Origin: Candidatus Woesearchaeota archaeon
GTDB lineage: Archaea; Nanobdellota; Nanobdellia; Woesearchaeales; GW2011-AR9
Length of the DNA stretch: 64,000 nt
Direction: 5' to 3'
NCBI GenBank assembly: GCA_945861715.1
Contig: CAMAVK010000002.1
Coordinates: 106,662 to 170,661, forward strand
The notes beneath the pieces were generated by a model. The model was not told where the DNA came from. It did no database searches and saw only the letters and a program-made list of their open reading frames with translations. This document shows positions 6,951 through 22,036 of this stretch, piece after piece. Each line of letters begins with the position of its first letter. Position 1 is the first letter of the stretch. The translations under genes were made by a program, and so were the position numbers.

Positions 6951-9215
6951 GTGAGAAAAAATCATATCAAAAATAAGAGGCTTCATGGACAAAAGATATG
7001 GGCATTTAGTTTGCTCTCTGTTTTGATTGTTGTTGGTTTTGGTGCTCTATTTCACTATTCAAGTTCCTTTTCTTCTCTATCACTTACCGGGCAGGTTACC
7101 GCTGATTCCCCATTTCTTTCTAATGCTCCTTTGGTACCAGTAACAGGCGTGGCTAGTGCTTATTCTCGCGGTTTTATTTCAAATACTGTTCCTTATGTAT
7201 ATTATGTTGGTTCACGAAGACAAGCGATATGTACTTGTCCAAAAAATGTGTGTCCTGCGTTTGCTTCGTGCGGAGTTGCTCTTGCGTCTGCTCCAGCTCT
7301 TATTGCGCAGATTACATCAAATGATGCAAAGTGTTTTGCGGTTACTCAAAAAGCAGGAGTCACATATGGCTCGGCTCCTACTATTACCATCGGTATTTGC
7401 CCTGTTGCGAGTAAAGCTGCAAGTCCACCTCCACCTTCTGCATGTTCATCTATAACGCATGGTACGCTTTGCTCTGGAGATGATATTGGTACTGTTCCTG
7501 CTACTGATTTTTCGTTGCCTGTTCTTAGTTGTACTAATCAACGAAAGTGTGAGTTTACTTGTGGTGCTGGTTATGTTCCGGTTGGAAAACAATGTATTGC
7601 TGTACCTGCAGCCGGCGTATGTGTTGATTCGGATTCGGGCGTTAATGGTGCGGTTCAAGGCTACGGTGTTACTTCAGGATTGGTTAAAGTTGATTCGTGT
7701 TTTAGTGCGACTAGTATGCGTGAAGTAACTTGTTCTAATAACCAAATTAGTACCTCGAATAGTTTTACGTGTTCGGCTCAACAGGGTTGTGTTAACGGGA
7801 TGTGTTCTGCTCGCACTAATTTGTATAATACTGTTCTTGCTGCTCCTGGCCCTTTTGCTCGTTCAGTGTGTGAAAAACGATTGGCTGAGTTAGGTTTGTA
7901 TCCGTCGGATTCCGTTCGAGCTGCGTCATGCCTGGGTACACATGTGGGCGTTCCACTCTTTATGGCAAATACTGGTCGAGTGTATACTGTTGATACTATT
8001 GGTCTTAGTCTTCCTGGTGGGTCCATTGCTGTTCCTACGGGTACACTCAAAGCTATTGGTAATTTTTGTCCAGTGTATCGAAGTTCGCATGCTGCTGAAT
8101 TTGTAACTGACACTGTTGGAGCTAATTCGTTTTATTACCCCACTTCTGCTGTGGCGCTTAAGGGTTGCCTTGGGTCTCTTGATCCAACTCTTCTTATTTC
8201 TTATGATGGTACATCATTAGTTCTTGCGACAAGTAACTCCATGTTTGATATTTTTTCCAATGTTGCCCTTTATCCAACGTACGCAGTGCACGTTGCAGAT
8301 GTTGATGTAGATAGGATTGCTGATGGTGTTGATAATTGTGTAAATATTGCTAATCCTACTCAAACTGATACCGACCGTGATGGTAAGGGAGATTTATGTG
8401 ATAATTGTGTTTCCGTTTCGAATGTAGGCCAACTTGATTCTGATTCTGATCTAGTTGGAAATGCTTGTGACAATTGTGCTGATCTTGCTAATCGTGATCA
8501 GTTAGATTCTGATCGTGATAAAATTGGTGATGTGTGTGAAGTTGTTGCTCCTGCTCGCACGCTGCCTTCTTATTGGGATTTGAATAATGATAATTTAGTA
8601 GATACGAGAGCTGATAGTGTTGGTCCTCCTGCTGTTACTAATTTAGATTCTGCCTGTGCTATGGCAGCGTTTAATTACTTACCCCTTCGTCAATTTCAAC
8701 CGGTCAAGGCTGCATGTGGTAATTCGCTTGTTGGATCTCGGAAAATTGATTTTGATTGTAATGGTCGCGTTAGTTTGAATGAGATGCTCGAAACAATTGC
8801 AGTTATTACTCAAGGACAACCTATCTCTGGTGATCTTAATACTGATACTATCCCAGATTGTACTCTTTTGAATACTGATTCTGACGGTATTGCGTTTGTT
8901 GATGACAATTGTCCTACAGTTTCAAATGTTGATCAAGCAGATGCTGATTCTGATGGAGTTGGGAACGTTTGCGATGCTGATTATGTATCTCCTGCTGCAG
9001 CTGCTCCTACTGGTGGGGCGGGGGCGGGTACTGGTGCTGGTCAGGCACTTGCTCGTCAGGTATTACCTTATGACTTAAATGGAGATGGATGTGTAAATAG
9101 ATCCGATGTTGATGTATTATTTGCAGAGTTTAGTTCTAATCGCAATTCCCGTGCTGTTGCACATAGGTTAACCTTAATAGCTCGCCATATGGGTGAGGGA
9201 TGTGTGGTGGGTTAA
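6951..9215 (+). CDS. Surface protein: N-terminal TM, Cys-rich modules, thrombospondin type-3 repeats, dockerin-like Ca loops
   Basis: DNC..NPTQTDTDRDGKGDLCD repeats; YWDLNNDNLVD, DFDCNGRVS and YDLNGDGCVNRSD loops; a CVDSDSG module. Confidence 0.8.
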   Translation: MRKNHIKNKRLHGQKIWAFSLLSVLIVVGFGALFHYSSSFSSLSLTGQVTADSPFLSNAPLVPVTGVASAYSRGFISNTVPYVYYVGSRRQAICTCPKNVCPAFASCGVALASAPALIAQITSNDAKCFAVTQKAGVTYGSAPTITIGICPVASKAASPPPPSACSSITHGTLCSGDDIGTVPATDFSLPVLSCTNQRKCEFTCGAGYVPVGKQCIAVPAAGVCVDSDSGVNGAVQGYGVTSGLVKVDSCFSATSMREVTCSNNQISTSNSFTCSAQQGCVNGMCSARTNLYNTVLAAPGPFARSVCEKRLAELGLYPSDSVRAASCLGTHVGVPLFMANTGRVYTVDTIGLSLPGGSIAVPTGTLKAIGNFCPVYRSSHAAEFVTDTVGANSFYYPTSAVALKGCLGSLDPTLLISYDGTSLVLATSNSMFDIFSNVALYPTYAVHVADVDVDRIADGVDNCVNIANPTQTDTDRDGKGDLCDNCVSVSNVGQLDSDSDLVGNACDNCADLANRDQLDSDRDKIGDVCEVVAPARTLPSYWDLNNDNLVDTRADSVGPPAVTNLDSACAMAAFNYLPLRQFQPVKAACGNSLVGSRKIDFDCNGRVSLNEMLETIAVITQGQPISGDLNTDTIPDCTLLNTDSDGIAFVDDNCPTVSNVDQADADSDGVGNVCDADYVSPAAAAPTGGAGAGTGAGQALARQVLPYDLNGDGCVNRSDVDVLFAEFSSNRNSRAVAHRLTLIARHMGEGCVVG

Positions 9216-9216
9216 G

Positions 9217-10806
9217 ATGATATCTTCACGTGGGCTTTCAAAGGTTGTACTCATTGGTGTTATGGCTATTTTACTCGTGGGTGTTCTGGTATTTGTTATG
9301 TATAATAAAAGTGCTGTTGGGCAAGCTGTAGCTGTTAACACTGTTAACATTAATACTGTTCATGCGGGTGATGTAGGGCTTAGTGGTCCAGTTGTTGAGG
9401 GTTCAGAGAGCGCTTCAGTTGAAGTAGGACAAGAGTACTTTCTTCGTTTGTTTGCGAATCCCTCCGCTGATTTACATTCCTATGTTTTCACACTACGCTT
9501 TCCAGGGCAGTTTGCGTTTTCTGATACGCCTTATTCTTTCTCTACTCTAAATCCTGATTTTAGTATTCATCAGTCGGTTGTAAGTGGTGCTGATTATACT
9601 GAACTCATAGTAATGGTTAACTCGAATACTGGTGGGGTGATTGATGGCGGGCAGGCACTTTCACTTGGAAGAATATTTATGAGGGCAGTTTCTGAAGGAA
9701 GTACTAATCCTACTTTTTCGTTTAGTGCACTTGATGAGTCTGGAGCTATCATTCTTGGTGAGGATGACCATGTTTTTGTTACACCTATCCGTGCAGTTCT
9801 TCCCGCTGCGCCTCCTGGTTCTGAGGTGGATCCAATTATTGTTGATACTTGTGATGATAATGGGGTGGCTGTTCCAGTTATAACTCAGCGGTGTGGTGCT
9901 CAGGGTGTGGTTGAGTATTGTGCGCAGAATCTTGGTGAGTCTGCACAATGGTCAGTTGATCCTGATATGCAATGTGGTGCGGGTACACATTGTGCTGGTG
10001 CTGGGATGTGTACTGCTGATGTTGCTGCTTCCCCCGCTGTTGCTGTTGTTGGGGGTGTCTGTGTAGTTGGAGACAGTGCGTCGGGTTTAGTTTGTGAGAA
10101 TAGTGTATGGAAGATTGCGAGCGGATGGGATTGTGGATTGCATAGATCTGATTGTGTTTCTGGTACGGCTTGCTCTGCTGATGGGATTTGTCGAGTACCG
10201 GTAGTAGCTGTTGATATGTGTACTGTGGGTGATACTCGTTGTGCAGGTCTGAGTGCTCAAGAAGAATGTGTTCGCGGTGCTGATGGTATACTTGCGTGGG
10301 GCAATATGCAGGGGTGTACCACTCTTATTAGTGGTCAGTTGGGTCGGTCAGTTTCGCACGCGTTTTGTCCGTATGGAGTTCCGGGTGCATCGCAACACTG
10401 TATTGCAGATGAAAACCGTAATGGTATAGAGGATGGACCCAACGATCCTGTTGAAGTTGAAGCTGCTGCGCCTCCTGCTCCTGAGGTTCCTGCAGTTGAG
10501 GAAGTTCCTGCAGTAGTTTGTGTGCTTGGCGATTATAACTCGGATGGACGTGTGTCGATTCAAGACTTTCGTGGATTTCGGTCCCATGTGTTGTCGTGGA
10601 ATGATTTGAGTTCGAACTTGGATTGTGGTTCTGCAGGTCAACAATCCTGTTCCGTTCGTGGTCAGTTCCAATGTGATTCCGGATTAGGGTTTGGTGCTGC
10701 CGTGTCGGCATGTAATCCTGGGTGTGTCGTTGGTGACTTTGATTCCAACGGTCGGGTTTCGATTCAGGATTTTAGAGGATTTAGAAACGCGGTATTGCGT
10801 AGGTAG
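9217..10806 (+). CDS. Surface protein: N-terminal TM, cohesin-like domain, Cys-rich repeats, C-terminal split dockerin
   Basis: 'SVEVGQEYFLRLFAN..SYVFTLRFP..LGRIFMRAVSEG' cohesin-like pattern; two C-terminal GDxxxxGRVSIQD loops; ATG 2 nt after the upstream stop. Confidence 0.75.
   Translation: MISSRGLSKVVLIGVMAILLVGVLVFVMYNKSAVGQAVAVNTVNINTVHAGDVGLSGPVVEGSESASVEVGQEYFLRLFANPSADLHSYVFTLRFPGQFAFSDTPYSFSTLNPDFSIHQSVVSGADYTELIVMVNSNTGGVIDGGQALSLGRIFMRAVSEGSTNPTFSFSALDESGAIILGEDDHVFVTPIRAVLPAAPPGSEVDPIIVDTCDDNGVAVPVITQRCGAQGVVEYCAQNLGESAQWSVDPDMQCGAGTHCAGAGMCTADVAASPAVAVVGGVCVVGDSASGLVCENSVWKIASGWDCGLHRSDCVSGTACSADGICRVPVVAVDMCTVGDTRCAGLSAQEECVRGADGILAWGNMQGCTTLISGQLGRSVSHAFCPYGVPGASQHCIADENRNGIEDGPNDPVEVEAAAPPAPEVPAVEEVPAVVCVLGDYNSDGRVSIQDFRGFRSHVLSWNDLSSNLDCGSAGQQSCSVRGQFQCDSGLGFGAAVSACNPGCVVGDFDSNGRVSIQDFRGFRNAVLRR
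10519..10803 (+). repeat. 285-bp split-dockerin module, copy 1
   Basis: Same length and high similarity to 11416-11700 and 14186-14470. Confidence 0.9.
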
Positions 10807-10812
10807 GGAAGA

Positions 10813-11703
10813 ATGAATTCTACTACTTTTGTTTTTCTTATTTTTGTGCTTCTTTCAACGTTTGTTATTGCCCCACAACAACCTGGTGCTGGAGAAGTTC
10901 CTGTCGTTACTTGTGTTGGAACTCCACTCCCTGGTACTACACCTTGTTGGTCTGGGACTGGTGTTGTAGCTCCTGGTACTCCTATCAGGTATATCACTGC
11001 TGGTAATGCTGTTTGTGGCGATTCATTCGAATGTAAGTATGCTTGTCCTTTGGGCCAAGTGGCTGCTCTTGATGGCTCTGGTTGTCCTACACCGATTAGT
11101 TTTGATTTAACTCCGGGAGCTTCTCAGCTTTTCCGTTGGAATAGCCAGTTGGATTACAAACTGACTCTTACTCCGGAAGGTTTGAATTCGGATGTAGCCA
11201 ATGTAGATATTTTGGAGCGGACTGCTGATGGTGCTTATCACTCGGTTCGCCGGCTGCGCTTGCTATGGGGTGAGCCTCTTACAGTGGATATTTCTGTTGC
11301 AAGGGTGGGTCCAGAGATTTATGTAACATATGATACTGACGCTGGTGGTGTTTATTTTTTCAAATTACAAAGTGTTGACAATTCTCCATTAATTTTGCAG
11401 GCTAACGCGGGTGATTGTCTTCGAGGCGATTATAATGTTGATGGTCGTGTTTCAATTCAAGACTTTCGTGGATTTCGATCGCATGTATTGTCGTGGTCAA
11501 CTTTGAGTGAGGATGCAACTTGTGGTGGAGAAGGGCAACAAAGTTGTGCTGTGCGTGGTCAGTTCCAATGTGATTCCGGGTTAGGGTTTGGTGCTGCCGC
11601 GTTAGTTTGTGCTGCGAGTTGCAATATTGGTGACTTTGATTCTAATGGTCGCGTTTCTATTCGGGATTTTAGAGGATTTCGTAATGCGGTTCTGGGAAGA
11701 TAA
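10813..11703 (+). CDS. Secreted Cys-rich protein with C-terminal split dockerin
   Basis: Signal peptide, a C..ECKYAC module, a beta-rich middle and the shared 95-aa C-terminal module. Confidence 0.8.
   Translation: MNSTTFVFLIFVLLSTFVIAPQQPGAGEVPVVTCVGTPLPGTTPCWSGTGVVAPGTPIRYITAGNAVCGDSFECKYACPLGQVAALDGSGCPTPISFDLTPGASQLFRWNSQLDYKLTLTPEGLNSDVANVDILERTADGAYHSVRRLRLLWGEPLTVDISVARVGPEIYVTYDTDAGGVYFFKLQSVDNSPLILQANAGDCLRGDYNVDGRVSIQDFRGFRSHVLSWSTLSEDATCGGEGQQSCAVRGQFQCDSGLGFGAAALVCAASCNIGDFDSNGRVSIRDFRGFRNAVLGR
11416..11700 (+). repeat. 285-bp split-dockerin module, copy 2
   Basis: Encodes CLRGDYNVDGRVSIQDFRGFRSHVLSW...GDFDSNGRVSIRDFRGFRNAVLGR. Confidence 0.9.
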
Positions 11704-11827
11704 CATTTTTTCCCCTATGCTTTAGATATCTGTCACATTTTCAGTTGAGAGTGTGTTTATCGCTTCAATGTTGTTTTGAATGTAGATTCGTCGAAGACTT
11801 TTTAAATTCCAGTTTTATTGTTATTAT

Positions 11828-14473
11828 ATGCGCTCTGGATGGTTGATGTTTATACTAGTACTTGTTTTAGTGTTAGTCCCCATGGTTGAGGCCATTGAGT
11901 TTTCTGGATGTAATTCGTATTTTTCAAGTGCTACCTGCATATCTCACTCTGAGTGTTTTTGGAGGTATGGTAATTTAGGGGTAGGTAGTTGTCTTACGAA
12001 GGCTGGAACTCCAGCGTCAATTTCGGTTTCTTGTCCGAGTGTGGTGTCTGTTAATCAAACGTTTGAATGCACTTTATCAGGTGAGAATGTTAGGTTGAAT
12101 AATGCGGAGATTGCTATTTTTGCTAATCCATTAGAAATACATGGGACTCCTTCAATCTCAAGCATGCAGTGGTATTCTGCGCAAAATCCTTTTTACACCC
12201 TACTCTCTGATAGGCTTTCGATAGTTTCTCTTGCGGATTATCAACCAGTACTTAATGATAGGATCGCTTCTCCCTATTTTGGTCCAATTATGAGATTTAA
12301 GATAGCATTGTCTCGTAATGTTAATAGGATTTCTGTTTCTGTTACGGGGTCTGACCTTCAACTTGATACTTCAAGTGGTCCTATTACGGTTCAACAAGGT
12401 TCTATTCCAATCACTTTTCCTTGCTATAATTCGTGGAATCGACCAGTATCTTTGGCGCAAGTTTCTACTCTTAATCCTATTTATTGTTCTGTTGTTTTTA
12501 CAAATGATTATTTTGGCAAGAATTTACGGATGTCATTTGGGATTTCTTCAGCTGGGTTGGCTCCGAGTTATATCAACCCCGATACATCGGCCGATTTTGT
12601 CCATTATTACACCACTGGTAAACCAGGGGTTGATATTAATGATAATTTGGTAATTACCAATTTAGATGTTCCTTTTGGTCAACCAATAACCATCACTTCT
12701 TCTGATAGAATACCAAAAGGGGCAGTTTTATCTATGGGGATGTTGTATACTCGTACAGGTTCTATTACTCCAACTCTTAGTACTTTATCTAGTTCTGGTC
12801 CTCCATTCCGTCTAACAGGGTCTCCAATTATGGTAAATTATTTTCTGGGTGGAGGGTGTCAACCGAGAGGGAGAGAGTTAGTACTGGAAGGAGCACATCC
12901 AGGTCAAGTTGTGTGTGGATTAATGAATGGTCAGCAGGGATGGATTTCAAAGATAGGTTCATACTGTGTAGATAATAATAATTGTGGTGATACTGGACGT
13001 TGCCAACAAGGTGTGTGTAAAGTTGCGTCTGGTAGCTCTTGTGTACGAGATTTGGATTGTATGTCGGGTGATGCTTGTGAGTCAAATAGCTGTTCGTTTG
13101 TTAGACTAAATGCTCCTTGTACCGTTGCCGGTAAAACGGTTATTACCCCGATTTTCGGAACTTTGAAATGTGTATTGCGTGAGGGTAATCTGAGATGGCT
13201 CGGGGTACTTTCAACGGGGTGTGATGGGGATGCGTCTTGTGATACGGGTTTATTTTGTTCCAATTCTCGGTGTGCACCTGTTGCGGTTGGTGCTCCTTGC
13301 GTGACTCTTGGTGCTTTTCAGGGAAGAATTCCTTCATATGATGTAGCTACTTCGTTTATCTGTTCAACTGTTCCTGGCTCCTCTCCTTTACGTGAGGAAG
13401 TGCGGTTGAAAAGTAATAGTCCTTGCAGATTAGATTCTGAGTGTGTGTATGGTGATGTGTGCGATGGGGGACGGTGTCGCTTTGTATCCCCTGGGCGTGA
13501 TTGTTTCATTGAAGGTCGTGAGCTTTTTCAAAGTGGTCGATTATATCGATGTGTTCTGGAAGAAGATGGTCTGAGTTGGAAGTCTGTTCCTGGTAATGTT
13601 TGTGCTGCTGATGGTGATTGTGATTCAGATGTGTCTCTTTTTTGTAGTGTAGGGAGGTGTGCAGTTATGGATTCGGGGTTACCTTGCTTTGCAGCTGGTA
13701 CGCGTTTTGTAGAAGGTAGTTCCGACCCTTATCGTTGTATTTCTATTGATGGAACTAATGCGGCGGGATCTTATCGTTTATCAGTTACTAATGGTGGGGC
13801 GTGTGATGCACATTCGGAGTGTATGTCTGGTCAGTGTAATGGTGGGTTCTGTTCTCGGTTTGAAATTTTTCATACTTGTTATCAATTGCATTCAACATGG
13901 ACTCAAGATAGTCGCACTCTTGTTTGCGAGCAGACTTCACAGTTAATCCCAGCGTTTATTTGGAAGGTCCCCGAGGGAGGAAGGTGTCAGGGTGATGATG
14001 GGCTATCGTATCCCAATCGCTGTGCAGCTGAAAATTCGCGTTGTGTGGATGGTCGATGTCTTGCTGAAGGTGAGTTATGCTCTGTTCTTAACTCTCAAAT
14101 TAATGGTGATGTAAATTCTCTTGTGTGTAAAATAGTTGGGGATCATTTAGAATGGGTCTTAGAGGGTGTGGTGGTACAGGGTGAATGTCTCTTGGGTGAT
14201 TATACTGGTGATGGTCGTGTGTCGATTCAAGACTTTCGTGGATTTCGGTCGCATGTGTTGTCATGGAGTGATCTTAGTTCTAATGTTGACTGCGGAGCTG
14301 GGGGTCAGCAATCGTGTGCGGTACGTGGTCAGTTCCAATGTGATTCTGGTTTAGGGTTTGGCGGGGCTGTGTCACAATGTGGCGCTCATTGTAATATTGG
14401 GGATTTTGATTCTAATGGTCGGGTTTCAATTCAGGACTTTCGTGGGTTTAGAAACGCGGTTCTTGTTCGATAA
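11828..14473 (+). CDS. Secreted protein: beta-sandwich (possibly cohesin-like) domains, about 6 Cys-rich repeats, C-terminal split dockerin
   Basis: Signal peptide; repeats of the form C..G....L.C......W....G..C..D.DC..G..C..G.C; shared C-terminal module; TATA TTTTTAAA about 25 nt upstream. Confidence 0.8.
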   Translation: MRSGWLMFILVLVLVLVPMVEAIEFSGCNSYFSSATCISHSECFWRYGNLGVGSCLTKAGTPASISVSCPSVVSVNQTFECTLSGENVRLNNAEIAIFANPLEIHGTPSISSMQWYSAQNPFYTLLSDRLSIVSLADYQPVLNDRIASPYFGPIMRFKIALSRNVNRISVSVTGSDLQLDTSSGPITVQQGSIPITFPCYNSWNRPVSLAQVSTLNPIYCSVVFTNDYFGKNLRMSFGISSAGLAPSYINPDTSADFVHYYTTGKPGVDINDNLVITNLDVPFGQPITITSSDRIPKGAVLSMGMLYTRTGSITPTLSTLSSSGPPFRLTGSPIMVNYFLGGGCQPRGRELVLEGAHPGQVVCGLMNGQQGWISKIGSYCVDNNNCGDTGRCQQGVCKVASGSSCVRDLDCMSGDACESNSCSFVRLNAPCTVAGKTVITPIFGTLKCVLREGNLRWLGVLSTGCDGDASCDTGLFCSNSRCAPVAVGAPCVTLGAFQGRIPSYDVATSFICSTVPGSSPLREEVRLKSNSPCRLDSECVYGDVCDGGRCRFVSPGRDCFIEGRELFQSGRLYRCVLEEDGLSWKSVPGNVCAADGDCDSDVSLFCSVGRCAVMDSGLPCFAAGTRFVEGSSDPYRCISIDGTNAAGSYRLSVTNGGACDAHSECMSGQCNGGFCSRFEIFHTCYQLHSTWTQDSRTLVCEQTSQLIPAFIWKVPEGGRCQGDDGLSYPNRCAAENSRCVDGRCLAEGELCSVLNSQINGDVNSLVCKIVGDHLEWVLEGVVVQGECLLGDYTGDGRVSIQDFRGFRSHVLSWSDLSSNVDCGAGGQQSCAVRGQFQCDSGLGFGGAVSQCGAHCNIGDFDSNGRVSIQDFRGFRNAVLVR
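14186..14470 (+). repeat. 285-bp split-dockerin module, copy 3
   Basis: Encodes CLLGDYTGDGRVSIQDFRGFRSHVLSW...GDFDSNGRVSIQDFRGFRNAVLVR. Confidence 0.9.
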
Positions 14474-14553
14474 TACTATTTTTGATATTACGAAAGGTTT
14501 ATATTTACTAATTGAATACATTAATCAAGTTTTACTACTACGAGGGATGATGG

Positions 14554-15336: not shown

Positions 15337-18300
15337 AGTTTCGTGCATTTTCTTTTTGTGTACTCCTTTTAGCTCTTAGTCTGGGTTCTTTGGCTGCGAC
15401 TACTGTATTTTTTCAGCCTTCCACACTATCTCTAGCTCAAGGTGAAGTAAAAGAAGTAACGGTTATAATAAATTCTGATCTACCACTCAACAGCATACAA
15501 ATTGCTGGTACATATGATCCAGCTAAGGTGTCTGTTGTTGCAACAAAATTGCCTTTGGTGGGTGCAAATGGTGTGGCATGGCCCGTTGCTACTATAGGGG
15601 CTCCCGTATTTGCTCCGCCTAGCAATCGCTTTGCTTATAATGCTGTTCTTAATCCAGATGTTCCTGCGCAATACCTTGCTCCTGGTCAGACGCGTCTTTT
15701 TACCTTGCGGTTTACTGGTATTGCTGCTGGTGTTAGTACAGTTTCTATGGCTTCAGCATTTTATAGGACGGGGGCAGTTAACCCTATTGCTATTGCTGTT
15801 TTACCCACTGTTTCTGTAACCGGTCCAGTTGCTCGTTTTAATCCTTTTCCTGGAACTCCATTTGATAATGCTCCTGTCACTCCTCGTGCAGCAGGGACAG
15901 TAGATCAGGAAAATTGTGAGTTTCGATCATCTGCGGGTATAATCTCTGCTGGTTTCAACAGCGATAGGGATAATATTATGCGTGATTCTCAAGATCCTGA
16001 TTGTTTGAATCAAGCATGCGATGTTGCTGCTCCAACTAAAAAATGGACGTGGTCTTATTATTTAGGTGATACGGCTCGTACTGCTCCTCCTTCGGCTTTA
16101 GGTACTGGTTGTTGTGCTCCAAATCAATGTGCTCTTGCAGGTCAATGTATGAACCCAGGTTCTATTGATGAATCTAGCGGTCATTCAATGGTATGTTTGG
16201 GTCATGATAATGCGGTTTTGAGTTCGGCGACTGTTGTTGCGGTAGCGGGTGCGGTTGCTCCAATTGATTCTAATCCGTCGGTTAATTCATGGCTAGTATG
16301 TACTCCTGGTAGTCGATCTGTTACGGTAGGTGGTATCGTGTATACCTGTGCAAATGGTCATTGGACTTCACCTGCGTGTAGAGCTCCAGATCCTGCTGCC
16401 TTTGCTCATTCTAGTTTCTGTGCTGGTGATGATGTAGGCGTGGTTGGTGCGCCTCTTGCGCCTGCTCTTGTTGGGTATGATATTTCAATGAATAGAGGTA
16501 TGTGTACTGCTGAGCGAAAGTGTGAGTATGCCTGTCAACAAGGATATCGGTTAGGAACAAATGCGAATGGTGCGCCTGCGTGTGTTTTAGATGTTCCATG
16601 TACTCCTACGCAAAATCCAGGTACAAATCCTAAACAATGTAAGGTAGGTAGTCCTACTGTTCTTCAGTATTGTGCAAATGTAAATAATTTAGTGCAGTGG
16701 GTTGATTCACCTTGTAGTGCAGGACAGACATGTCATGCTGCTGATGCGCAACATACACTTGCGTATTGTACTTTAGATGTTGATGCTGATGGTGTTGATG
16801 ATTCAATTGATAATTGTCGTATGATTGCTAATCCCAATCAAGCTAACGCGCGTTTAGGTACACCTCAAAATAATGGGTATGGTGATGCTTGTCAAGCAAA
16901 TGCTGCTTGTACTATGGTTAATGGTGCTGCTTCTGGTTTTGTTTGGAGTTATGATTCTAGAGAGAATCCTGGTATAAATCCTTTAATTGGATGTTGTGCT
17001 GCTGGATCTTGTGCAGATCGAAGAGGACTGTGTTTTACTTTTAATCCTGGAAACCCACAAACAATCAATGGATTTTGTAAGCCAGGTGGCAATTGGGAAA
17101 TCTGTGACATTAATACTCATGGACTTGTGAGTTCAACTAATCCTGACTATAGATGTTTAAGTAAGCAAATTGCTGTTCCTGGACAAATTGTCCCTGCGGT
17201 TCCTGACCCTGTTTGGGTAAGATGTATGCCTAGTAATTTCATCTCTTTTGCGGGATCAAAGTTGGCGACTCCTGGTAATGCAGCTTTTGTTGGTGATACT
17301 GAAGCTGGTGGGGTTGTTTGTGATGCTAATGGAGATTGGCACCCGTCACCATGTACAGGTATTATTCCTAACTCTAAGGTATGTACTGGTGATGATGTAG
17401 GTGTTGTTGATCAAACTCCTAAACTACTTGTTGCATCGTGTGATGCTCTTCCTCAAGCAAAGTGTCAATATGTGTGCTTGCGAGGATATATGAAGTCTGG
17501 TGGTAGTTGTGTTCCTGACTTAGATAATGATGCTATTGCTGACCCGGTTGATAACTGTCCTTCGGTTTATAACCCTGATCAAAATGCTGCAAGTTGTGTT
17601 GAAGGCAATGCTTGTATTTCGAAAATTGATGTTGATAAATATCTAAATGTTCCTTCTGTTGCTCTTCCTATTCCTCCGAATTCGGCTGCTGTTTGGACTT
17701 ATACCAATTCCCGAGATAATGTTGCTTCCAAAGTAGTTGCTTGTTGTAATGGTTACTTCAATCCTAATCCAGTATCCAATGATTGTGCACTTCCTAATGG
17801 ATATTGTATGAGAGAAAATGAAGTTTCTCGAGAGAAGTTATGCGGCGATAACCATATTATGGAAGTTTGTGATGCGCAGCATGATGGTGTAATCTCAAAA
17901 TCTAATCCTCTTGTGCGCTGTAAATTTACGAAGCAAGTTGATGCTTGTCGAGCAGGTGAACGTCTAGCAGGAGATATGTGTATAAATGATATTACCAGGA
18001 CAGCTCATGCTGCTGATTTCTGGGTTCCACAATGGCAAGTTTGTAATGAAGCAAATGTAGCGGATTATAATGATGGATCATCATGTCAAGCGAGTGGTGC
18101 ATGGCAGAGAGAAGAGTGTACTCTTGCGAAAGATGGCCAGGTTGGTTTAATGGATCATACCCTTCGGTGTAAGCATGACTGGATGGGTAGTCCTGCATGG
18201 ATTCAATGTAATACTGCAAATCTACAAATTTTCAATACTTTGAAGGATCAATACAATATTAATATTCGTAACCTTGTTCCTTCTCAAGGTTTTAATGATG

Positions 18301-18872
18301 GAAGTAGTTGTTCAGCAGCAGGTGATTGGATTTTGGAGCCATGTGGCCCCTCTAATCATGCTGATGTTCATACATTGAACCGCAAATTGCGTTGCCGAGC
18401 AGGTTTCGCACCTGAGGGACAAGTTGTGGCGCACCCAGTTTGGGTCCAATGTAATACTGCGAATTTAGTATTATTCAATGATAATCCTTCATGTGATGCT
18501 AGTGGATTTTGGCAAAGTGCAGAAATTGAGGCTAATCATGATTGTAATTTGGATCGTACTTGTACACCTGGTGATCCATGTTCACTAGATTCTGATTGTG
18601 CTGATGGTGCGTGTTCTAATGGAATTTGTGAACCAATTCAGGATGCAGATAATGATGGTGTTCCTGATGTTTTTGATCAATGTCCGGATACTTCTCCAGA
18701 TGAAATTAATATTGTAAATGGGGTTGGCTGTGTTGCGGGGGATAGCGAGGGTACAGTTGATGATTTTATAGAACTTGTTCGCGCGATACTCAATGATGAT
18801 TCAAATGATCATAAAATACAATCCATTGCAGAATTATTTAGGACTCATTTGGATGTCCTTGCAGTTAATTAA
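15333..18872 (+). CDS. Large secreted protein: N-terminal cohesin-like domain, many Cys-rich modules, TSP3 repeats
   Basis: 'VFFQPSTLSLAQGEVKEVTVIINSD..SIQIAGTYDPAKVSVV..LFTLRFTGIAAGVSTVSM' is a typical cohesin pattern; DxDxDGVxDxxDxC repeats; ATGA overlap with the upstream gene. Confidence 0.8.
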   Translation: MKFRAFSFCVLLLALSLGSLAATTVFFQPSTLSLAQGEVKEVTVIINSDLPLNSIQIAGTYDPAKVSVVATKLPLVGANGVAWPVATIGAPVFAPPSNRFAYNAVLNPDVPAQYLAPGQTRLFTLRFTGIAAGVSTVSMASAFYRTGAVNPIAIAVLPTVSVTGPVARFNPFPGTPFDNAPVTPRAAGTVDQENCEFRSSAGIISAGFNSDRDNIMRDSQDPDCLNQACDVAAPTKKWTWSYYLGDTARTAPPSALGTGCCAPNQCALAGQCMNPGSIDESSGHSMVCLGHDNAVLSSATVVAVAGAVAPIDSNPSVNSWLVCTPGSRSVTVGGIVYTCANGHWTSPACRAPDPAAFAHSSFCAGDDVGVVGAPLAPALVGYDISMNRGMCTAERKCEYACQQGYRLGTNANGAPACVLDVPCTPTQNPGTNPKQCKVGSPTVLQYCANVNNLVQWVDSPCSAGQTCHAADAQHTLAYCTLDVDADGVDDSIDNCRMIANPNQANARLGTPQNNGYGDACQANAACTMVNGAASGFVWSYDSRENPGINPLIGCCAAGSCADRRGLCFTFNPGNPQTINGFCKPGGNWEICDINTHGLVSSTNPDYRCLSKQIAVPGQIVPAVPDPVWVRCMPSNFISFAGSKLATPGNAAFVGDTEAGGVVCDANGDWHPSPCTGIIPNSKVCTGDDVGVVDQTPKLLVASCDALPQAKCQYVCLRGYMKSGGSCVPDLDNDAIADPVDNCPSVYNPDQNAASCVEGNACISKIDVDKYLNVPSVALPIPPNSAAVWTYTNSRDNVASKVVACCNGYFNPNPVSNDCALPNGYCMRENEVSREKLCGDNHIMEVCDAQHDGVISKSNPLVRCKFTKQVDACRAGERLAGDMCINDITRTAHAADFWVPQWQVCNEANVADYNDGSSCQASGAWQREECTLAKDGQVGLMDHTLRCKHDWMGSPAWIQCNTANLQIFNTLKDQYNINIRNLVPSQGFNDGSSCSAAGDWILEPCGPSNHADVHTLNRKLRCRAGFAPEGQVVAHPVWVQCNTANLVLFNDNPSCDASGFWQSAEIEANHDCNLDRTCTPGDPCSLDSDCADGACSNGICEPIQDADNDGVPDVFDQCPDTSPDEINIVNGVGCVAGDSEGTVDDFIELVRAILNDDSNDHKIQSIAELFRTHLDVLAVN

Positions 18873-18885
18873 CTAGGTGATACTT

Positions 18886-20901
18886 ATGGCTTCAATGCAA
18901 CAAAAACAATCTGTGCAATCAAAACCGGTTGCGAGACCAGCTGCTAAGCAAGTTGGTAGTATAAACAATAACGTGGGTGCGTCTGCTAGCGCTACACCTG
19001 CTGTTCCTTCAGCGAGCAGTCCATTAAAGTTTGTGGTTATTGCGGTTGTTGCTATTGTTGCAATAGCGTTGTTGCTCTTCTTTGTGAATAAAGGTACAGG
19101 TCATGCGATTAACTTTGGTGATGATGCTGGGATTGCGGCAAATATGGGTGGTGTATTTCTAGCTGATGGCAGTACCATTCCGGTTGATAATGGGGCAGCT
19201 GATCTCTTATTACCGTTGAAAATTAATTTTGAGTCTCGTTCCGTTGCAGTGCAAGTTAATTATCACATTGAAGCATCTGAAGGTGCAATTTTTGAGTGTG
19301 ATTTTGCATTACGTTCTGATTTGCAGGAGAGTGGACTTGTGGTGTTGAATGATCAATTCTGCTCTTTAGGTCAAGATAGTCATGTTGAAATTGCATTTTT
19401 ATGTGCTGATGCAGAGTGCAGTAATGCCTTTTCTGGTGTTGAAGAAATTGGTCAGTTGCGGTTAACACCTGATGCCGATAATACTGAACCTATTTCAGTT
19501 ACTTTTGATAGTATTTCGTATGTTGATTTTGAAGATGTTGAAGATAGGATTGTTGATGTTGCTGTTCAAAATGCTGCGCTTAATTATGCTGGTGAGCCAC
19601 CTGCTTGTCCTCCGACTGATTGTGCGTCTGAAGGTCAGAGTGCGTGTCAAGGTAATTCGGCATGGGGTACTTGTTCAGTGAATGTAAACACAGGTTGTTT
19701 AGAAGTTTCAAATGTTCCTGATGAGAATAGGTGTGGTCTAACTCGACATTGTGAGGTCGGAGCTTGCGTTGATAATCCACCGTTTGTTTGTGTTGCTGCA
19801 GAGGGATGTATTGTTGAAGCTCAGTGTACTTTAGGTGGATTTTACTGGTATGCTGATGTGAATGGTGTTGAGACATGTCATGCTGAAGATGCTCCTCAAT
19901 GTGATAATACCATTGATGCTGATAGTGATGGTGTTGGAGATGCTTGTGACAACTGTCCTGCTCTTGGTAATGGTAATCAGATTGATCTTGATGCTGACAG
20001 TATCGGTGACTCTTGTGATAATGATAAAGATGGCGATACTATTCCTAACAGTGATGAAATTGCAGGATGTGATATTGATAATAGTCCAGAATGTGGTTCA
20101 GATAATACGGATTTTGATAGTGATGGGGTCTTAAATGATGTTGATAACTGTCCAAATCTAACGAATGCAAATCAAGCGGACTCGGATGCTGATAGAGTCG
20201 GCGATGCATGTGACGGTGAAGCGGGACCAAATAGTGATTTTGATGTTGATGGTGTTATTGATACTGGTGATAATTGTCCTCGTGTTGCAAATGCGGATCA
20301 AGCGGATCTGGATGCTGATGGTGTAGGAGATAACTGTGACAATTGCCGCAGTAATTCGAATGCTGATCAGGTGAATGCTGATAGTGATGCACTCGGTGAT
20401 GCTTGTGATGTTTGTTCTCAAGATGACCAGAATGATCGCGATGCCGACGGTATTTGTGGTAATGTAGATAATTGTCCTGCAACTTCTAATCCTCTTCAAG
20501 AAGATGTAGATGCCGATGGTATTGGGGAAGCTTGTAATGGTATTCCTCGAGTAGTTGATAATGAGGTTGTCCAATCAATGGACGGTCTGAAGGTTAAGGT
20601 TGTAGAGGGTGGAAAACAAGGAAGTGTGTTTACTACTTTAGTTATTGCTTTGGAACCTATTGACACCCCTTTTACGGTTTATACTACCTTACTTGATGCA
20701 GATGGAGTTACAATCGTGTTTGAGAGTCGAACTATTCAATCATTGGAACCAGGAAATTCATTTAGGGTACATACTGATGGGGGTGTCCTTGAAGTTGTTA
20801 AAAAAGAAGTCATTGTTAATGATAATCTTGACCCTGCAACATCTCTTGTCCATCTTAACGGTAAGTTTTCAGTGAGTTATGGTAATGTGGGGGTAAATTA
20901 G
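18886..20901 (+). CDS. Membrane-anchored thrombospondin type-3 repeat protein with possible cohesin-like domain
   Basis: N-terminal TM; long run of DNCP..NxxQxDxDxDGxGDACD repeats (about 19900-20540); AGGTGA RBS. Confidence 0.85.
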   Translation: MASMQQKQSVQSKPVARPAAKQVGSINNNVGASASATPAVPSASSPLKFVVIAVVAIVAIALLLFFVNKGTGHAINFGDDAGIAANMGGVFLADGSTIPVDNGAADLLLPLKINFESRSVAVQVNYHIEASEGAIFECDFALRSDLQESGLVVLNDQFCSLGQDSHVEIAFLCADAECSNAFSGVEEIGQLRLTPDADNTEPISVTFDSISYVDFEDVEDRIVDVAVQNAALNYAGEPPACPPTDCASEGQSACQGNSAWGTCSVNVNTGCLEVSNVPDENRCGLTRHCEVGACVDNPPFVCVAAEGCIVEAQCTLGGFYWYADVNGVETCHAEDAPQCDNTIDADSDGVGDACDNCPALGNGNQIDLDADSIGDSCDNDKDGDTIPNSDEIAGCDIDNSPECGSDNTDFDSDGVLNDVDNCPNLTNANQADSDADRVGDACDGEAGPNSDFDVDGVIDTGDNCPRVANADQADLDADGVGDNCDNCRSNSNADQVNADSDALGDACDVCSQDDQNDRDADGICGNVDNCPATSNPLQEDVDADGIGEACNGIPRVVDNEVVQSMDGLKVKVVEGGKQGSVFTTLVIALEPIDTPFTVYTTLLDADGVTIVFESRTIQSLEPGNSFRVHTDGGVLEVVKKEVIVNDNLDPATSLVHLNGKFSVSYGNVGVN

Positions 20902-20902
20902 G

Positions 20903-22036
20903 ATGAGACGACTCATTCTTGCGATTTTCATTTTTGCTTTTTTTTCTTTTAGCGTTGCCGCAGTTGATGTTTCGCTTTCCGCAACTGAATTAGCGCGAGG
21001 ACAGGTTTTGGTTTCTACTGTTACAAGTTGTGCTAATATTGCTACGTTGCAACTTAAGAATCCAGACGGACAATTAGTATATGTTGATCAAGGAAATGCT
21101 GATTGGGAGTCTCGGTATAACACTAATTCCAATGGAGCACGGGGTAAATATTCTTTGAAAGTGCTTTGTCAGGATACAACTTCTACAGAGAAATTCTTTT
21201 GTGTAGAAGCTCCTGGTTGTACTGATGTTGCTATTAATAATGTACCACCTCCTCCTCCAGCTGATGATGGTAATGCTAATGCTGGGTCACCAAGTGGGAA
21301 TAGTGGTGGAGGAGGACGACGTTGTAACCCAAAATGGCAATGTGATAATTATTGGACGCAATGTGATGTTACTTTACAACAAAGTCGAAATTGTTTTGAT
21401 ACCACCAAATGTGCACCGCAGAAATTAGAGAATCGAACTTGTGCGCCATGTCAAGAGTCATGGGCTTGTTCAGCTTGGAGTCCATGTGAGGGTGGCATGG
21501 AGGGTCGAACTTGTTTAGATGATAAGGATTGTGGCACCGCAACGTACAAACCAGTTGAGGAGCGGCCATGTGGCGCTGATATCGGTGGATATGAACCTGA
21601 TCGATATACTTCGCAAGTTCCTCCACCGTCCGCTGCTGCACCAAGCCGACTGCAATATCCTGCAGTGCAAAAAGTGGTTGCACCTGTAGCTAGTGTATCG
21701 TTTTGGGATGAGTGGGGCTTTTTGATCCTTGCTTTGCTTGCGTTGTTGTTGCTTGTGGGTATTATTTTATATCTACTTCATATGAAGAACAATAAACATG
21801 CAGCATATAATTCGGATGAGTTGAAGATTTGGATGCTTAAAGAAAAAGAAGCTGGTTCGTCTGAAGGTGATATTCGTCAGATTTTAATGGAACAAACAGG
21901 TTGGACCAAAGAAGATGTGGATTTGGCGTTTGAAGAGTTGGCCAAATCTCAAACTCCTGCTGGGGTTGTACCTCCGTCGGTTGCATCTGTTGCTCCTGTG
22001 GAGCCGGTTAAGTCTGTTGAGAAAGGGAAGAAGTAG
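20903..22036 (+). CDS. Single-pass membrane protein with two TSP1-like Cys modules and a cytoplasmic helical domain
   Basis: Signal peptide; CxxxWxCxxWxxC..R.C modules; TM 'WGFLILALLALLLLVGIILYLL'; C-terminal 'ELKIWM..G.SEGDIRQILMEQTGWTKEDVDLAF'. Confidence 0.75.
   Translation: MRRLILAIFIFAFFSFSVAAVDVSLSATELARGQVLVSTVTSCANIATLQLKNPDGQLVYVDQGNADWESRYNTNSNGARGKYSLKVLCQDTTSTEKFFCVEAPGCTDVAINNVPPPPPADDGNANAGSPSGNSGGGGRRCNPKWQCDNYWTQCDVTLQQSRNCFDTTKCAPQKLENRTCAPCQESWACSAWSPCEGGMEGRTCLDDKDCGTATYKPVEERPCGADIGGYEPDRYTSQVPPPSAAAPSRLQYPAVQKVVAPVASVSFWDEWGFLILALLALLLLVGIILYLLHMKNNKHAAYNSDELKIWMLKEKEAGSSEGDIRQILMEQTGWTKEDVDLAFEELAKSQTPAGVVPPSVASVAPVEPVKSVEKGKK

What the first reader, a model, noticed from the sequence alone, without database searches (positions are those of the whole stretch)
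6951..22036. Candidate cohesin-dockerin surface scaffold (cellulosome-like but enzyme-free) in a DPANN-type archaeon
Seen: eight co-oriented genes with tight junctions (9215/9217, 10806/10813, ATGA overlap at 15333, 20901/20903), all encoding signal-peptide or TM proteins. Cohesin-like N-terminal beta-sandwiches are clearest in 15333 and 9217 and plausible in 14554, 18886 and 11828. Dockerin-like Ca loops occur in 6951, 9217, 10813 and 11828, and TSP3 Ca repeats in 6951, 15333 and 18886. Membrane anchors are in 6951, 9217, 18886 and 20903. No glycoside hydrolase or other catalytic motif is visible. Known: cohesin-dockerin pairs build cellulosomes and also occur non-cellulosomally in Archaeoglobus. 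Inference: the subunits plug into each other to form an extended Ca- and disulfide-stabilised appendage, plausibly for host attachment. Proteins carrying both a cohesin and a dockerin (9217, perhaps 11828) could chain into a polymer.
Basis: partly seen in the sequence, partly recalled or inferred. Interest (0 to 1): 0.85.

Follow-up and report, generated by a model that had tools for sequence, protein, structure and literature searches.

The report
Cohesin-dockerin surface locus in a Woesearchaeote
A tiny symbiont-type archaeon carries a cluster of eight secreted or membrane-anchored, enzyme-free proteins built from very divergent cohesin and dockerin "socket and plug" modules: a known kind of surface assembly kit, seen here in an unusual variant.

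Summary
The eight co-oriented genes and their junctions are real. All eight proteins have an N-terminal hydrophobic segment and 3.8-6.4% Cys, against a genome median of 1.14%.

Cohesins:
- g15333 N-terminus: supported. hhalign 93%, E 2.5e-7 against 23 cohesins of the same order. The model's top 17 matches are all cohesins, Z 10.6-13.9.
- g18877: supported through positional orthologs. hhalign 96.7%, E 3.9e-10.
- g9217: moderately supported.
- g14554 and g11828: not supported.

Dockerins: g9217, g10813 and g11828 end in one shared module. It aligns with both F-hand repeats of 12 genuine dockerins, but carries a 34-residue Cys-rich insert and stays below Pfam's cut-off. It is under purifying selection.

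TSP_3 repeats pass Pfam in three proteins, and no catalytic family was found.

Context: the g20903 membrane protein occurs in 53 of 61 genomes of the family. Cohesin or dockerin genes lie beside it in 10 of 24 loci. In the order, Cohesin occurs in 26 and Dockerin_1 in 53 of 201 genomes.

Binding between the modules was not shown. Verdict: a new variant of non-cellulosomal cohesin-dockerin systems.

The parts
6951..9215 (+). g6951: N-terminal hydrophobic anchor (aa 16-34), Cys-rich region, TSP_3 repeats, and two F-hand-like Ca loops at aa 600-611 and 708-719 (about nt 8748-8783 and 9072-9107). This may be a degenerate or split dockerin.
   Evidence: TSP_3 43.9 bits; Dockerin_1 23.1 bits summed with neighbours; hhalign E 8.6e-4, one repeat.
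9217..10806 (+). g9217: N-terminal hydrophobic anchor (aa 10-28), cohesin-like domain (aa ~64-200, nt ~9406-9816), Cys-rich middle, C-terminal dockerin module.
   Evidence: hhalign against 23 cohesins: E 1.3e-3, 102 columns, 0 of 70 shuffles reach it; 28 of 30 Atlas feature hits are Cohesin clusters.
10516..10803 (+). Dockerin module of g9217: F-hand repeat 1, a 34-aa four-Cys insert, F-hand repeat 2.
10813..11703 (+). g10813: signal peptide, Cys-rich N-terminus, beta domain, and the C-terminal dockerin module (nt 11413-11700).
   Evidence: (Dockerin_1 17.7 bits, under the 22.9 cut-off).
11828..14473 (+). g11828: signal peptide, two beta domains with a 'C-P..V..G..F.C' start (not shown to be cohesins), Cys-rich repeats, and the C-terminal dockerin module (nt 14183-14470).
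14554..15336 (+). g14554: signal peptide, beta domain (cohesin not supported), TSR-like Cys motif shared with g20903, and a C-terminal two-helix 'C-tail' module (nt ~15202-15333).
15333..18872 (+). g15333: signal peptide, cohesin (aa 23-165, nt 15399-15827), Cys-rich repeats, TSP_3 repeats, and a C-tail module (nt ~18732-18869).
18877..20901 (+). g18877: ~50-aa cytoplasmic N-terminus, TM helix (aa 52-70), divergent cohesin (aa ~74-222, nt ~19096-19542), six TSP_3 stretches, and a C-terminal beta domain. It forms a conserved gene pair with g20903.
20903..22036 (+). g20903: type I membrane protein with a signal peptide, N-terminal beta domain, two TSR-like Cys motifs, a TM helix at aa 274-292 and an ~85-aa cytoplasmic tail. 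It is the conserved core of the locus type.
   Evidence: 5 of 5 genomes; 53 of 61 genomes.

Best explanation
The locus encodes an enzyme-free, non-cellulosomal cohesin-dockerin assembly on the cell surface of a Woesearchaeota-type archaeon.

Shown:
- Cohesins. Two proteins carry a cohesin directly after an N-terminal membrane helix (g18877, g9217). A third cohesin heads a large secreted protein (g15333).
- Dockerins. Three proteins (g9217, g10813, g11828) end in one conserved dockerin type. Its two Ca-binding F-hand repeats are nearly identical to each other and are split by a 34-residue, four-Cys insert.
- Other content. The ectodomains are Cys-rich and TSP_3-rich and carry no enzyme.
- Conservation. 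g18877 and g20903 form a gene pair that recurs in the family, with canonical cohesin and dockerin genes at the same positions in other genera.

Inferred:
- The dockerins plug, Ca-dependently, into one or more of the locus's cohesins. Secreted Cys-rich proteins are thereby tethered to the membrane-anchored ones.
- g9217 has both a socket and a plug, so it can bridge or chain.
- The assembly serves adhesion, plausibly to a host cell or a surface.
For: g15333 cohesin:
- Its small family (P0006, P0010) against 23 Pfam-positive cohesins of the same order: hhalign 93.4%, E 2.5e-7, 119 columns.
- AF2 model: pLDDT 84.5.
- Foldseek: all but one of the 40 listed rows are cohesin or scaffoldin entries, best E 1.3e-7.
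- VIA-align over 48,161 chains: ranks 1-17 are all cohesins, Z 13.9-10.6, including A. fulgidus 2xdh at Z 12.3. Pilin and Ig-like domains score Z <= 9.4.
- Atlas features: 26 of 30 hits are Cohesin clusters.

g18877 cohesin:
- With two same-genus orthologs, against the positional equivalents in four other genera (each positive with the cohesin HMM): hhalign 96.7%, E 3.9e-10, 135 columns.

g9217 cohesin:
- hhalign E 1.3e-3 over 102 in-register columns; 0 of 70 shuffles reach the score.
- 28 of 30 Atlas feature hits are Cohesin clusters.

Dockerin module:
- All 6 of 6 PDB sequence hits are dockerins, best E 0.004.
- It aligns with both repeats of 12 genuine dockerins, with the Ca ligands D6, D17, D74 and D85 invariant.
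- hhalign 73.6%, E 2.9e-5, for one repeat.
- In the same-genus genome G002, a weakly similar (E 0.002-0.009), roughly collinear protein ends in a canonical dockerin.

Constraint on the module:
- The three copies are only 74-76% identical in DNA. 21-33 codons differ synonymously and 17-23 non-synonymously, of 96. In repeat 2 the counts are 9-11 against 2-4.
- The two repeats share 15-17 of 23 residues. This internal symmetry is typical of dual-binding dockerins (the comparison is recalled).

System level:
- g20903 homologs occur in 53 of 61 genomes of the family.
- Of 24 loci around them, 4 have a cohesin, 7 a dockerin and 10 either one. In 3 loci the cohesin gene lies directly upstream on the same strand, with the cohesin at aa ~85-215 as in g18877.
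- In the own genome these modules occur only in this locus.
Against: No cohesin-dockerin pair was shown to bind.

Curated thresholds:
- Cohesin PF00963: no hit at E <= 0.1 in 8 of 8 proteins, and 0 matches in the genome.
- Dockerin_1: 16.2 and 17.7 bits against a cut-off of 22.9, and no hit in g11828.
- An HMM of 12 dockerins of the order finds nothing in this genome at E <= 1.

Plain sequence searches of the N-terminal domains against PDB found no cohesin.

Model caveats:
- The g15333 model used an alignment that contained 23 cohesins, so it leans toward that fold.
- The dockerin model is poor: pLDDT 60.9, with the insert under 50. Its Foldseek matches, though all dockerins in the first 20 listed rows, have E >= 0.16.
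- For g9217, the Atlas structure rows with equal TM (0.73-0.74) include ASH/HYDIN Ig-like clusters.

Other points:
- The three cohesins are not detectably related to one another, so it is open which one, if any, takes the shared dockerin.
- The insert-bearing dockerin was found in only 2 of 41 genomes: this one and a contig-end fragment in G001.
- Adhesion or host attachment rests on analogy alone.
Confidence: 0.55

Rival explanations
1. The modules are real, but the dockerins do not pair with cohesins of this locus. They act as outward-facing adhesins that bind host-cell or environmental ligands, and the cohesins bind something else or are only structural spacers.
For: Non-cellulosomal dockerins have been proposed as adhesins in their own right (PMC10066038, section 12, passage read). 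In the order, dockerins occur in about twice as many genomes as cohesins: 53 against 26 of 201. Of the 24 related loci, 7 have a dockerin but only 1 has both a dockerin and a cohesin by HMM. The Cys-rich insert could change what the module binds.
Against: The HMMs miss divergent cohesins such as those of this window, so the 'dockerin without cohesin' counts are upper bounds. Three dockerins kept nearly identical by purifying selection, beside three cohesins in one gene cluster, fit a shared in-locus partner. Archaeal cohesin-dockerin pairs have been verified to bind, as stated in PMC9012536, section 32.
Confidence: 0.2
2. These are generic Ca- and disulfide-stabilised surface or S-layer-associated proteins. 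The cohesin-like sandwiches and F-hand loops are only stabilising building blocks without specific plug-and-socket pairing.
For: Curated Pfam thresholds are not met for cohesin or dockerin. TSP_3 repeats and a high Cys content dominate the proteins. The beta domains of g11828 and g14554 show no cohesin signal.
Against: Profile-profile and fold evidence place g15333 and g18877 with true cohesins, above generic Ig domains. The dockerin module keeps all four loop-end Asp ligands and its internal symmetry under purifying selection. Canonical cohesins and dockerins occupy the same positions in related genera.
Confidence: 0.17
3. The locus is an assembly artefact, or a decaying or foreign island that makes no functional system.
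For: GC is higher here (0.41-0.45) than in the rest of the window. Public contigs break inside two dockerin modules at a 35-nt exact repeat.
Against: The GC excess lies in codon positions 1 and 2, while GC3 is lower than in housekeeping genes (0.24 against 0.32). This is an amino-acid composition effect and not foreign DNA. All eight frames are open and strongly periodic. The three contig pieces have equal depth and overlap in a single linear path in two runs. The g18877-g20903 pair is syntenic in same-genus genomes.
Confidence: 0.03

Closest known systems
Non-cellulosomal cohesin and dockerin modules of archaea (Archaeoglobus fulgidus cohesin, PDB 2xdh; ANME archaea, PMC9012536 section 32)
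   Same: Both are archaeal, enzyme-free or non-cellulolytic, and use cohesin and dockerin on surface proteins. The g15333 model matches 2xdh at Z 12.3, rmsd 3.4, 124 aligned residues. Proteins with one dockerin plus cohesin(s) are described in ANME, like g9217.
   Different: Here the cohesins fall below Pfam detection. The dockerin has a 34-aa four-Cys insert. The partner domains are TSP_3 and Cys-rich repeats rather than ABC-transporter binding proteins or S-layer domains. The host is a 1.3-Mb DPANN genome. The anchor is an N-terminal TM helix directly followed by the cohesin.
Cellulosome anchoring scaffoldins and type I cohesin-dockerin pairs of Clostridia (e.g. 1ohz, 2vn5, 4dh2, 3ul4)
   Same: A cell-bound cohesin takes dockerin-tagged secreted proteins. 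The dockerin has two F-hand repeats with internal symmetry. The best PDB sequence hit of the module is the C. cellulolyticum Cel5A dockerin, 2vn5_B, E 0.004. The best fold matches of the cohesin are type I cohesins, Z 13.4-13.9.
   Different: There are no glycoside hydrolases or CBMs, no multi-cohesin scaffoldin and no SLH or sortase anchor. The inter-repeat linker is about 46 aa in place of the short linker of classical dockerins (linker length recalled).
Canonical cohesin/dockerin loci of other Woesearchaeales genomes
   Same: The locus type is the same: a g20903-family membrane gene preceded by a TM-anchored protein with an N-terminal cohesin, and flanked by dockerin- or C-tail-bearing secreted proteins.
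   Different: In those genomes the modules pass the cohesin and dockerin HMMs, and the dockerins have no insert. In this genome all modules have diverged beyond those models.
Thrombospondin type 3 (TSP_3, PF02412) Ca-binding repeats
   Same: Over Pfam's cut-off in g6951, g15333 and g18877.
   Different: They sit in archaeal surface proteins next to cohesins, not in the eukaryotic thrombospondin signature domain.

Membership tests
Cohesin (PF00963) | Score over Pfam's gathering threshold (24.1 bits). | tested here: not met
   No hit at E <= 0.1 in 8 of 8 proteins. 0 matches at E <= 1 in the whole genome.
Cohesin (PF00963) | Homology to bona fide cohesins by profile-profile comparison. | tested here: met
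   g15333 family against 23 Pfam-positive cohesins: 93.4%, E 2.5e-7. g18877 family against 4 HMM-positive positional equivalents: 96.7%, E 3.9e-10. g9217 is weaker: 18%, E 1.3e-3, 0 of 70 shuffles. g14554 and g11828: no significant signal.
Cohesin (PF00963) | A ~140-aa nine-stranded beta-sandwich jelly-roll fold, distinct from plain Ig domains. | tested here: met
   Tested for g15333 only. Model pLDDT is 84.5. VIA-align ranks 1-17 are all cohesins, Z 13.9-10.6, rmsd 2.3-5.6. Foldseek gives 91 matches at E <= 0.001 with cohesins on top. Caveat: the MSA contained cohesins. For g9217 only the Atlas's ESMFold model was available, TM 0.74 to Cohesin clusters but an equal TM to ASH Ig-like clusters: inconclusive for that protein.
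Cohesin (PF00963) | Binds a dockerin. | not testable with these tools
   Needs ITC, pull-down or array work with expressed modules.
Dockerin type I (PF00404) | Score over Pfam's gathering threshold (22.9 bits). | tested here: not met
   g9217 16.2 bits, g10813 17.7 bits, g11828 no hit. g6951 reaches 23.1 bits only when neighbouring partial matches are summed. An HMM of 12 dockerins of the order gives no hit at E <= 1.
Dockerin type I (PF00404) | Two tandem F-hand segments. Each is a 12-residue Ca loop with Asp/Asn at positions 1, 3 and 5 and Asp at position 12, followed by a helix. | tested here: met
   The loops are DYNSDGRVSIQD and DFDSNGRVSIQD in g9217, and alike in g10813 and g11828. They align with both repeats of 12 genuine dockerins, with D6, D17, D74 and D85 invariant. 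Helices are predicted after each loop, at aa 15-30 and 84-94. All 6 of 6 PDB sequence hits are dockerins.
Dockerin type I (PF00404) | A compact ~60-70-aa module with a short inter-repeat linker. | tested here: not met
   The module is ~95 aa. All 12 reference dockerins have a 34-column gap where the window's modules carry a four-Cys insert. The insert is modelled with pLDDT under 50.
Dockerin type I (PF00404) | Ca-dependent binding to a cohesin. | not testable with these tools
   Needs experiment.
TSP_3 (PF02412) | Score over Pfam's gathering threshold (25 bits). | tested here: met
   g6951 43.9, g15333 33.4 and g18877 105.5 bits, the last with 6 stretches.
Cellulosome | Dockerin-borne carbohydrate-active enzymes and a multi-cohesin scaffoldin. 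| tested here: not met
   No catalytic or CBM Pfam family in 8 of 8 proteins at E <= 0.1. No protein has more than one supported cohesin.

The most novel reading that the evidence does not exclude
Woesearchaeales of this family share a dedicated modular 'adhesome' locus. Its conserved membrane core is a TM-anchored cohesin protein plus the g20903-family protein with a cytoplasmic tail. A fast-evolving, strain-specific set of secreted Cys-rich, Ca-binding proteins is hung onto this core through two plug systems. One is the dockerin, here a disulfide-clasped insert variant. The other is a previously undescribed C-terminal two-helix 'C-tail' module. With g9217 able to chain, this would build the contact structure by which these episymbiont-type archaea attach to hosts.
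Probability: 0.25. Interest if true: 0.7.

Novelty: new variant of a known kind. Interest (0 to 1): 0.5.

Why it matters
How DPANN archaea hold on to other cells is largely unknown. Their surface proteins are mostly unannotated because they evolve beyond the reach of family models.

This locus shows that plug-and-socket cohesin-dockerin parts can hide below Pfam thresholds in such genomes. It also shows that they sit in a locus type conserved across a Woesearchaeal family, around a membrane protein present in 53 of 61 genomes searched. That gives concrete, expressible domain pairs to test for binding. It also gives a defined gene set to look for in surface proteomics or cryo-ET of DPANN-host co-cultures.

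The dockerin with a Cys-rich insert, and the recurrent C-tail module, are candidate new interaction modules.

The general principle of non-cellulosomal cohesin-dockerin systems in archaea is already known. The gain is therefore in extent and variant, not in kind.

Tried and rejected
No earlier findings were seen.

Complex prediction. Complex prediction of the g15333 cohesin (A7) with the dockerin module (A9) gave 'no answer': ipSAE 0.00 in two runs, controls not folded, partner fold uncertain. This is not evidence either way.

Sequence-only searches that found no cohesin:
- phmmer of g15333 N against PDB: 1 hit, a Fab light chain, E 0.25.
- g9217 N against PDB: 0 hits.
- A 2-sequence profile against PDB: 8 hits, all 7-alpha-HSDH, E >= 0.86.

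Homolog searches:
- Whole g9217 found only itself and its two paralogs.
- The exhaustive representative search with g15333 N gave 6 proteins at E <= 0.001. I kept only P0006 as a true relative. P0005 and P0007-P0009 matched in many short stretches and carry unrelated repeat families.
- The profile search added P0010.
- The g15333 N domain was found in 1 of 201 genomes of the order, its own.
- Whole g15333 was found in 0 of 5 close genomes at E <= 1e-5.

Alignments and scans that led nowhere:
- A combined alignment of full-length g9217 with cohesins (A8) smeared the cohesins over the whole protein and was discarded.
- tblastn of the g18877 C-terminal domain found it directly upstream of the g20903 homolog in only 4 of 29 loci. 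This was low sensitivity, replaced by the HMM survey.
- A regex census of the C-tail motif was too strict and missed g15333. It was replaced by an HMM.
- The sigma-70 promoter and terminator scan showed no excess over shuffles and does not apply to archaea.
- Rfam found no match in the window.

Sequencing runs. 4 DNA runs of one lake-water study hold the stretch, and no RNA holder is listed. Parts of the locus have no cover in runs X3 and X4. Neither is evidence about expression or absence.

Script time-out.

Literature. These searches found no paper on cohesin-dockerin in DPANN archaea:
- 'cohesin, dockerin, DPANN': 3 papers.
- 'dockerin, Woesearchaeota': 4 papers.
- 'dockerin, Nanoarchaeota': 3 papers.
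- One search was badly designed: none of its 25 listed papers holds 'dockerin'.
Supplementary files, for example S4 Data of PMC9012536, were closed and might list more archaeal architectures. That dockerins of Ruminococcus flavefaciens carry inserts is recalled and not checked.

Full report
ORGANISM AND LOCUS

The window is part of a 1.30-Mb, 8-contig genome of 39% GC that is 98% complete. It encodes an archaeal CCA-adding enzyme. Most of the closest relatives of its ProRS are records titled Woesearchaeota, with some titled Nanoarchaeota or Micrarchaeota and some 'uncultured Methanosarcinales'. 'DPANN-type archaeon' is therefore right.

The ATGA overlap at 15333 is read directly. The locus has a higher GC than its surroundings. 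The excess is in codon positions 1 and 2 (0.56 and 0.48, against 0.51 and 0.35 in ten housekeeping genes), and GC3 is lower (0.24 against 0.32). This is an amino-acid composition effect and not foreign DNA.

All eight proteins start with a hydrophobic segment, and g20903 has a second one near its C-terminus. Cys is 3.8-6.4%, against a median of 1.14% in 624 long ORFs of the genome.

WHAT PFAM SEES

TSP_3 passes its cut-off in g6951, g15333 and g18877. Dockerin_1 is below its cut-off in g9217 (16.2 bits) and g10813 (17.7 bits; cut-off 22.9) and is not seen in g11828. Cohesin is not seen at all, and no catalytic family is found. The whole genome has no Cohesin match at E <= 1, and only marginal Dockerin_1 matches. 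By curated thresholds the cohesin-dockerin reading therefore fails, and the case rests on more sensitive tests.

COHESINS

g15333.
- The exhaustive search with g15333 aa 23-176 found one true relative, P0006. A profile search added P0010. Both are ~270-aa secreted proteins with the same N-terminal domain.
- I collected 23 Pfam-positive cohesins from other genomes of the same order (alignment A4). The g15333 family matches this set at 93.4% probability, E 2.5e-7, over 119 of 135 columns.
- An AF2 model has pLDDT 84.5. Its alignment included those cohesins, which is a caveat.
- Foldseek returns cohesins almost exclusively.
- In the Foldseek-independent VIA-align search of 48,161 chains, ranks 1-17 are all cohesins, Z 13.9-10.6. 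Generic pilin and Ig domains follow at Z <= 9.4.
- The Atlas feature search agrees: 26 of 30 hits are Cohesin clusters.

g9217.
- The N-terminal domain gives a weaker, full-length, in-register match: E 1.3e-3 over 102 columns, which none of 70 shuffles reaches.
- 28 of 30 Atlas feature hits are Cohesin clusters. An MSA-free ESMFold model has TM 0.74 to Cohesin clusters, but an equal TM to ASH-type Ig clusters.

g18877.
- Alone it gives nothing.
- With its two same-genus orthologs it matches the positionally equivalent domains of four other genera at 96.7%, E 3.9e-10. Each of those four is positive with the cohesin HMM.

g14554 and g11828.
- Their beta domains belong to another small family that starts 'C-P..V..G..F.C' and shows no significant cohesin signal.

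The three supported cohesins are not detectably related to each other.

DOCKERINS

g9217, g10813 and g11828 share only their last ~95 residues, at 71-83% identity.

- Against PDB sequences the module hits six entries, all dockerins, best E 0.004.
- Aligned with 12 Pfam-positive dockerins of the order, both of its repeats fall on the two dockerin repeats. The loop-end aspartates D6, D17, D74 and D85 are invariant. All 12 references have a 34-column gap where the window's modules carry a four-Cys insert.
- hhalign, which is local, aligns one repeat at 73.6%, E 2.9e-5.
- The AF2 model is poor: pLDDT 60.9, with the insert under 50. It places a helix after each loop. Its first 20 listed Foldseek rows are all dockerins, but at E 0.16-1.6.
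- An HMM of the 12 references finds nothing in this genome at E <= 1, so the divergence is real.

The module is under constraint.
- The copies are only 74-76% identical in DNA.
- 21-33 codons differ synonymously and 17-23 non-synonymously, of 96. In repeat 2 the counts are 9-11 against 2-4.
- The two repeats of one module share 15-17 of 23 residues at only 62-65% DNA identity.

In the same-genus genome G002, an 816-aa protein ends in a canonical, insert-free dockerin. It is weakly similar to, and roughly collinear with, g11828 and g9217 (BLASTP E 0.009 and 0.002).

g6951 has two F-hand-like loops about 100 residues apart with a TSP_3 repeat between them. One aligns to a dockerin repeat at E 8.6e-4. 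I call this a possible degenerate dockerin.

COMPARATIVE CONTEXT

In 201 genomes of the order, Cohesin occurs in 26 (23 over the cut-off) and Dockerin_1 in 53 (48 over the cut-off), often on the same contigs.

g20903 has homologs in 5 of 5 close genomes and in 53 of 61 genomes of the family. I fetched up to 8 kb on each side of the homolog (less at contig ends), or a first stretch of the contig, in 24 genomes. The results:
- 4 loci have an HMM-positive cohesin, 7 a dockerin, 10 either one, and 1 both.
- In 3 loci (G004, G021, G014) the cohesin gene lies directly upstream on the same strand. It has a cytoplasmic N-terminus, a TM helix and a cohesin at aa ~85-215, which is the architecture of g18877.
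- In G002 the order is dockerin protein, small C-tail protein, g18877 ortholog, g20903 ortholog.

This is the strongest system-level support. The same locus type carries canonical modules elsewhere, and this genome holds a diverged edition. Within this genome the modules occur only here.

MECHANISM

Shown: the identity of the modules, their anchors, the constraint on them and their synteny.

Inferred: that the shared dockerin plugs into one or more of the three cohesins in a Ca-dependent way; that this tethers g10813 and g11828 (and g9217 itself) to membrane-bound g18877 or g9217, or to secreted g15333; and that the whole serves adhesion.

The one complex prediction allowed gave no answer (see Tried and rejected). 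I put 0.55 on in-locus cohesin-dockerin assembly. I put 0.2 on dockerins acting as outward adhesins with other ligands, 0.17 on purely structural modules and 0.03 on an artefact.

COMPARISON AND NOVELTY

Non-cellulosomal cohesin and dockerin modules are established in archaea. PMC9012536, section 32 (passages read), covers the verified A. fulgidus pair, the ANME proteins with a dockerin plus cohesins, and the proposed roles in surface attachment and cell-cell interaction. PMC10066038, section 12 (passage read), covers dockerins as adhesins in ultra-small Omnitrophota. Both cite Peer et al. 2009, which I did not read.

My three targeted searches found no paper that treats them in DPANN archaea.

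What is new here:
- A dockerin with a 34-residue Cys-rich insert.
- Cohesins beyond Pfam's reach.
- A conserved Woesearchaeal locus type around the g18877/g20903 pair.
- A recurrent C-terminal two-helix module.

This is a new variant of a known kind, of moderate interest.

Noticed in passing
window 15202-15333 (g14554 C-terminus) and 18732-18869 (g15333 C-terminus); also P0006, P0010, L136:2443-3090, L139:10753-12309, L139:14628-16184: A ~45-aa C-terminal two-helix 'C-tail' module ends secreted proteins of these loci. An HMM built from 7 examples finds it in 10 of 24 related loci. Two of those loci held training members; the non-training hits have E 1e-4 to 5e-6. In this genome it is found only in g14554 and g15333. 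It could be a second docking or sorting element.
   Followed up: partly
window 20903-22036: g20903 is a type I membrane protein with a ~85-aa cytoplasmic tail and no Pfam family. It has homologs in 53 of 61 genomes of the family, often in several copies or fused to larger ectodomains. Its function is unknown.
   Followed up: partly
window ~19030-19110 (g18877) and ~9244-9330 (g9217); L136, L137, L138, L139, L172, L178 orthologs: The N-terminal TM helix of the cohesin-bearing anchors is followed within 5-10 residues by a small conserved motif of the form G-[HKRQ]-A-[IVF], just before the cohesin. It might be a signal-peptidase site or a juxtamembrane element. The RG-LS start of g9217 could also be read as a pilin-like class III signal.
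   Followed up: no
window 15022-15150 (g14554 aa 157-199) and 21443-21571 (g20903 aa 181-223): A shared Cys motif, 'C.ESWACS.[FW]S.C..G.[EQ].R.C.D...CG', is 56% identical over 43 aa. It resembles thrombospondin type 1 repeats (recalled). P0006 and P0010 have a similar stretch after their cohesin.
   Followed up: no
window 10549-10583 and 14216-14250: A 35-nt exact repeat lies inside the dockerin modules of g9217 and g11828. Public contigs of two runs break exactly there, with equal depth on all three pieces. Related populations in two further runs of the same study carry 90-97% similar versions of parts of g10813, g11828 and g14554.
   Followed up: partly
G000 contig C1: 120648-122087(-), 44051-45955(-), 63365-65080(+): Three further TSP_3-type proteins lie elsewhere in the genome. 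One is 45% identical to g6951 aa 541-675, the stretch that holds its first F-hand-like loop.
   Followed up: no
window 6-1370 (+) and 23561-25327 (+): ORFs flanking the locus at a distance have weak Ig-like Pfam matches (FixG_C E 4.4e-4; Big_13 E 6.3e-4). They may be further surface proteins.
   Followed up: no
window 31785-32822 (-): A D-Ala-D-Ala ligase family gene (Dala_Dala_lig_C, E 3.1e-33) in an archaeal genome.
   Followed up: no
L004 (G001:C155:1153-2746), ORF 664-1593: The same-genus genome G001 has a TM-anchored Cys-rich protein that breaks off at the contig end just inside a dockerin-like first repeat whose helix start resembles that of the window's module. Such repeats probably fragment these assemblies.
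   Followed up: partly
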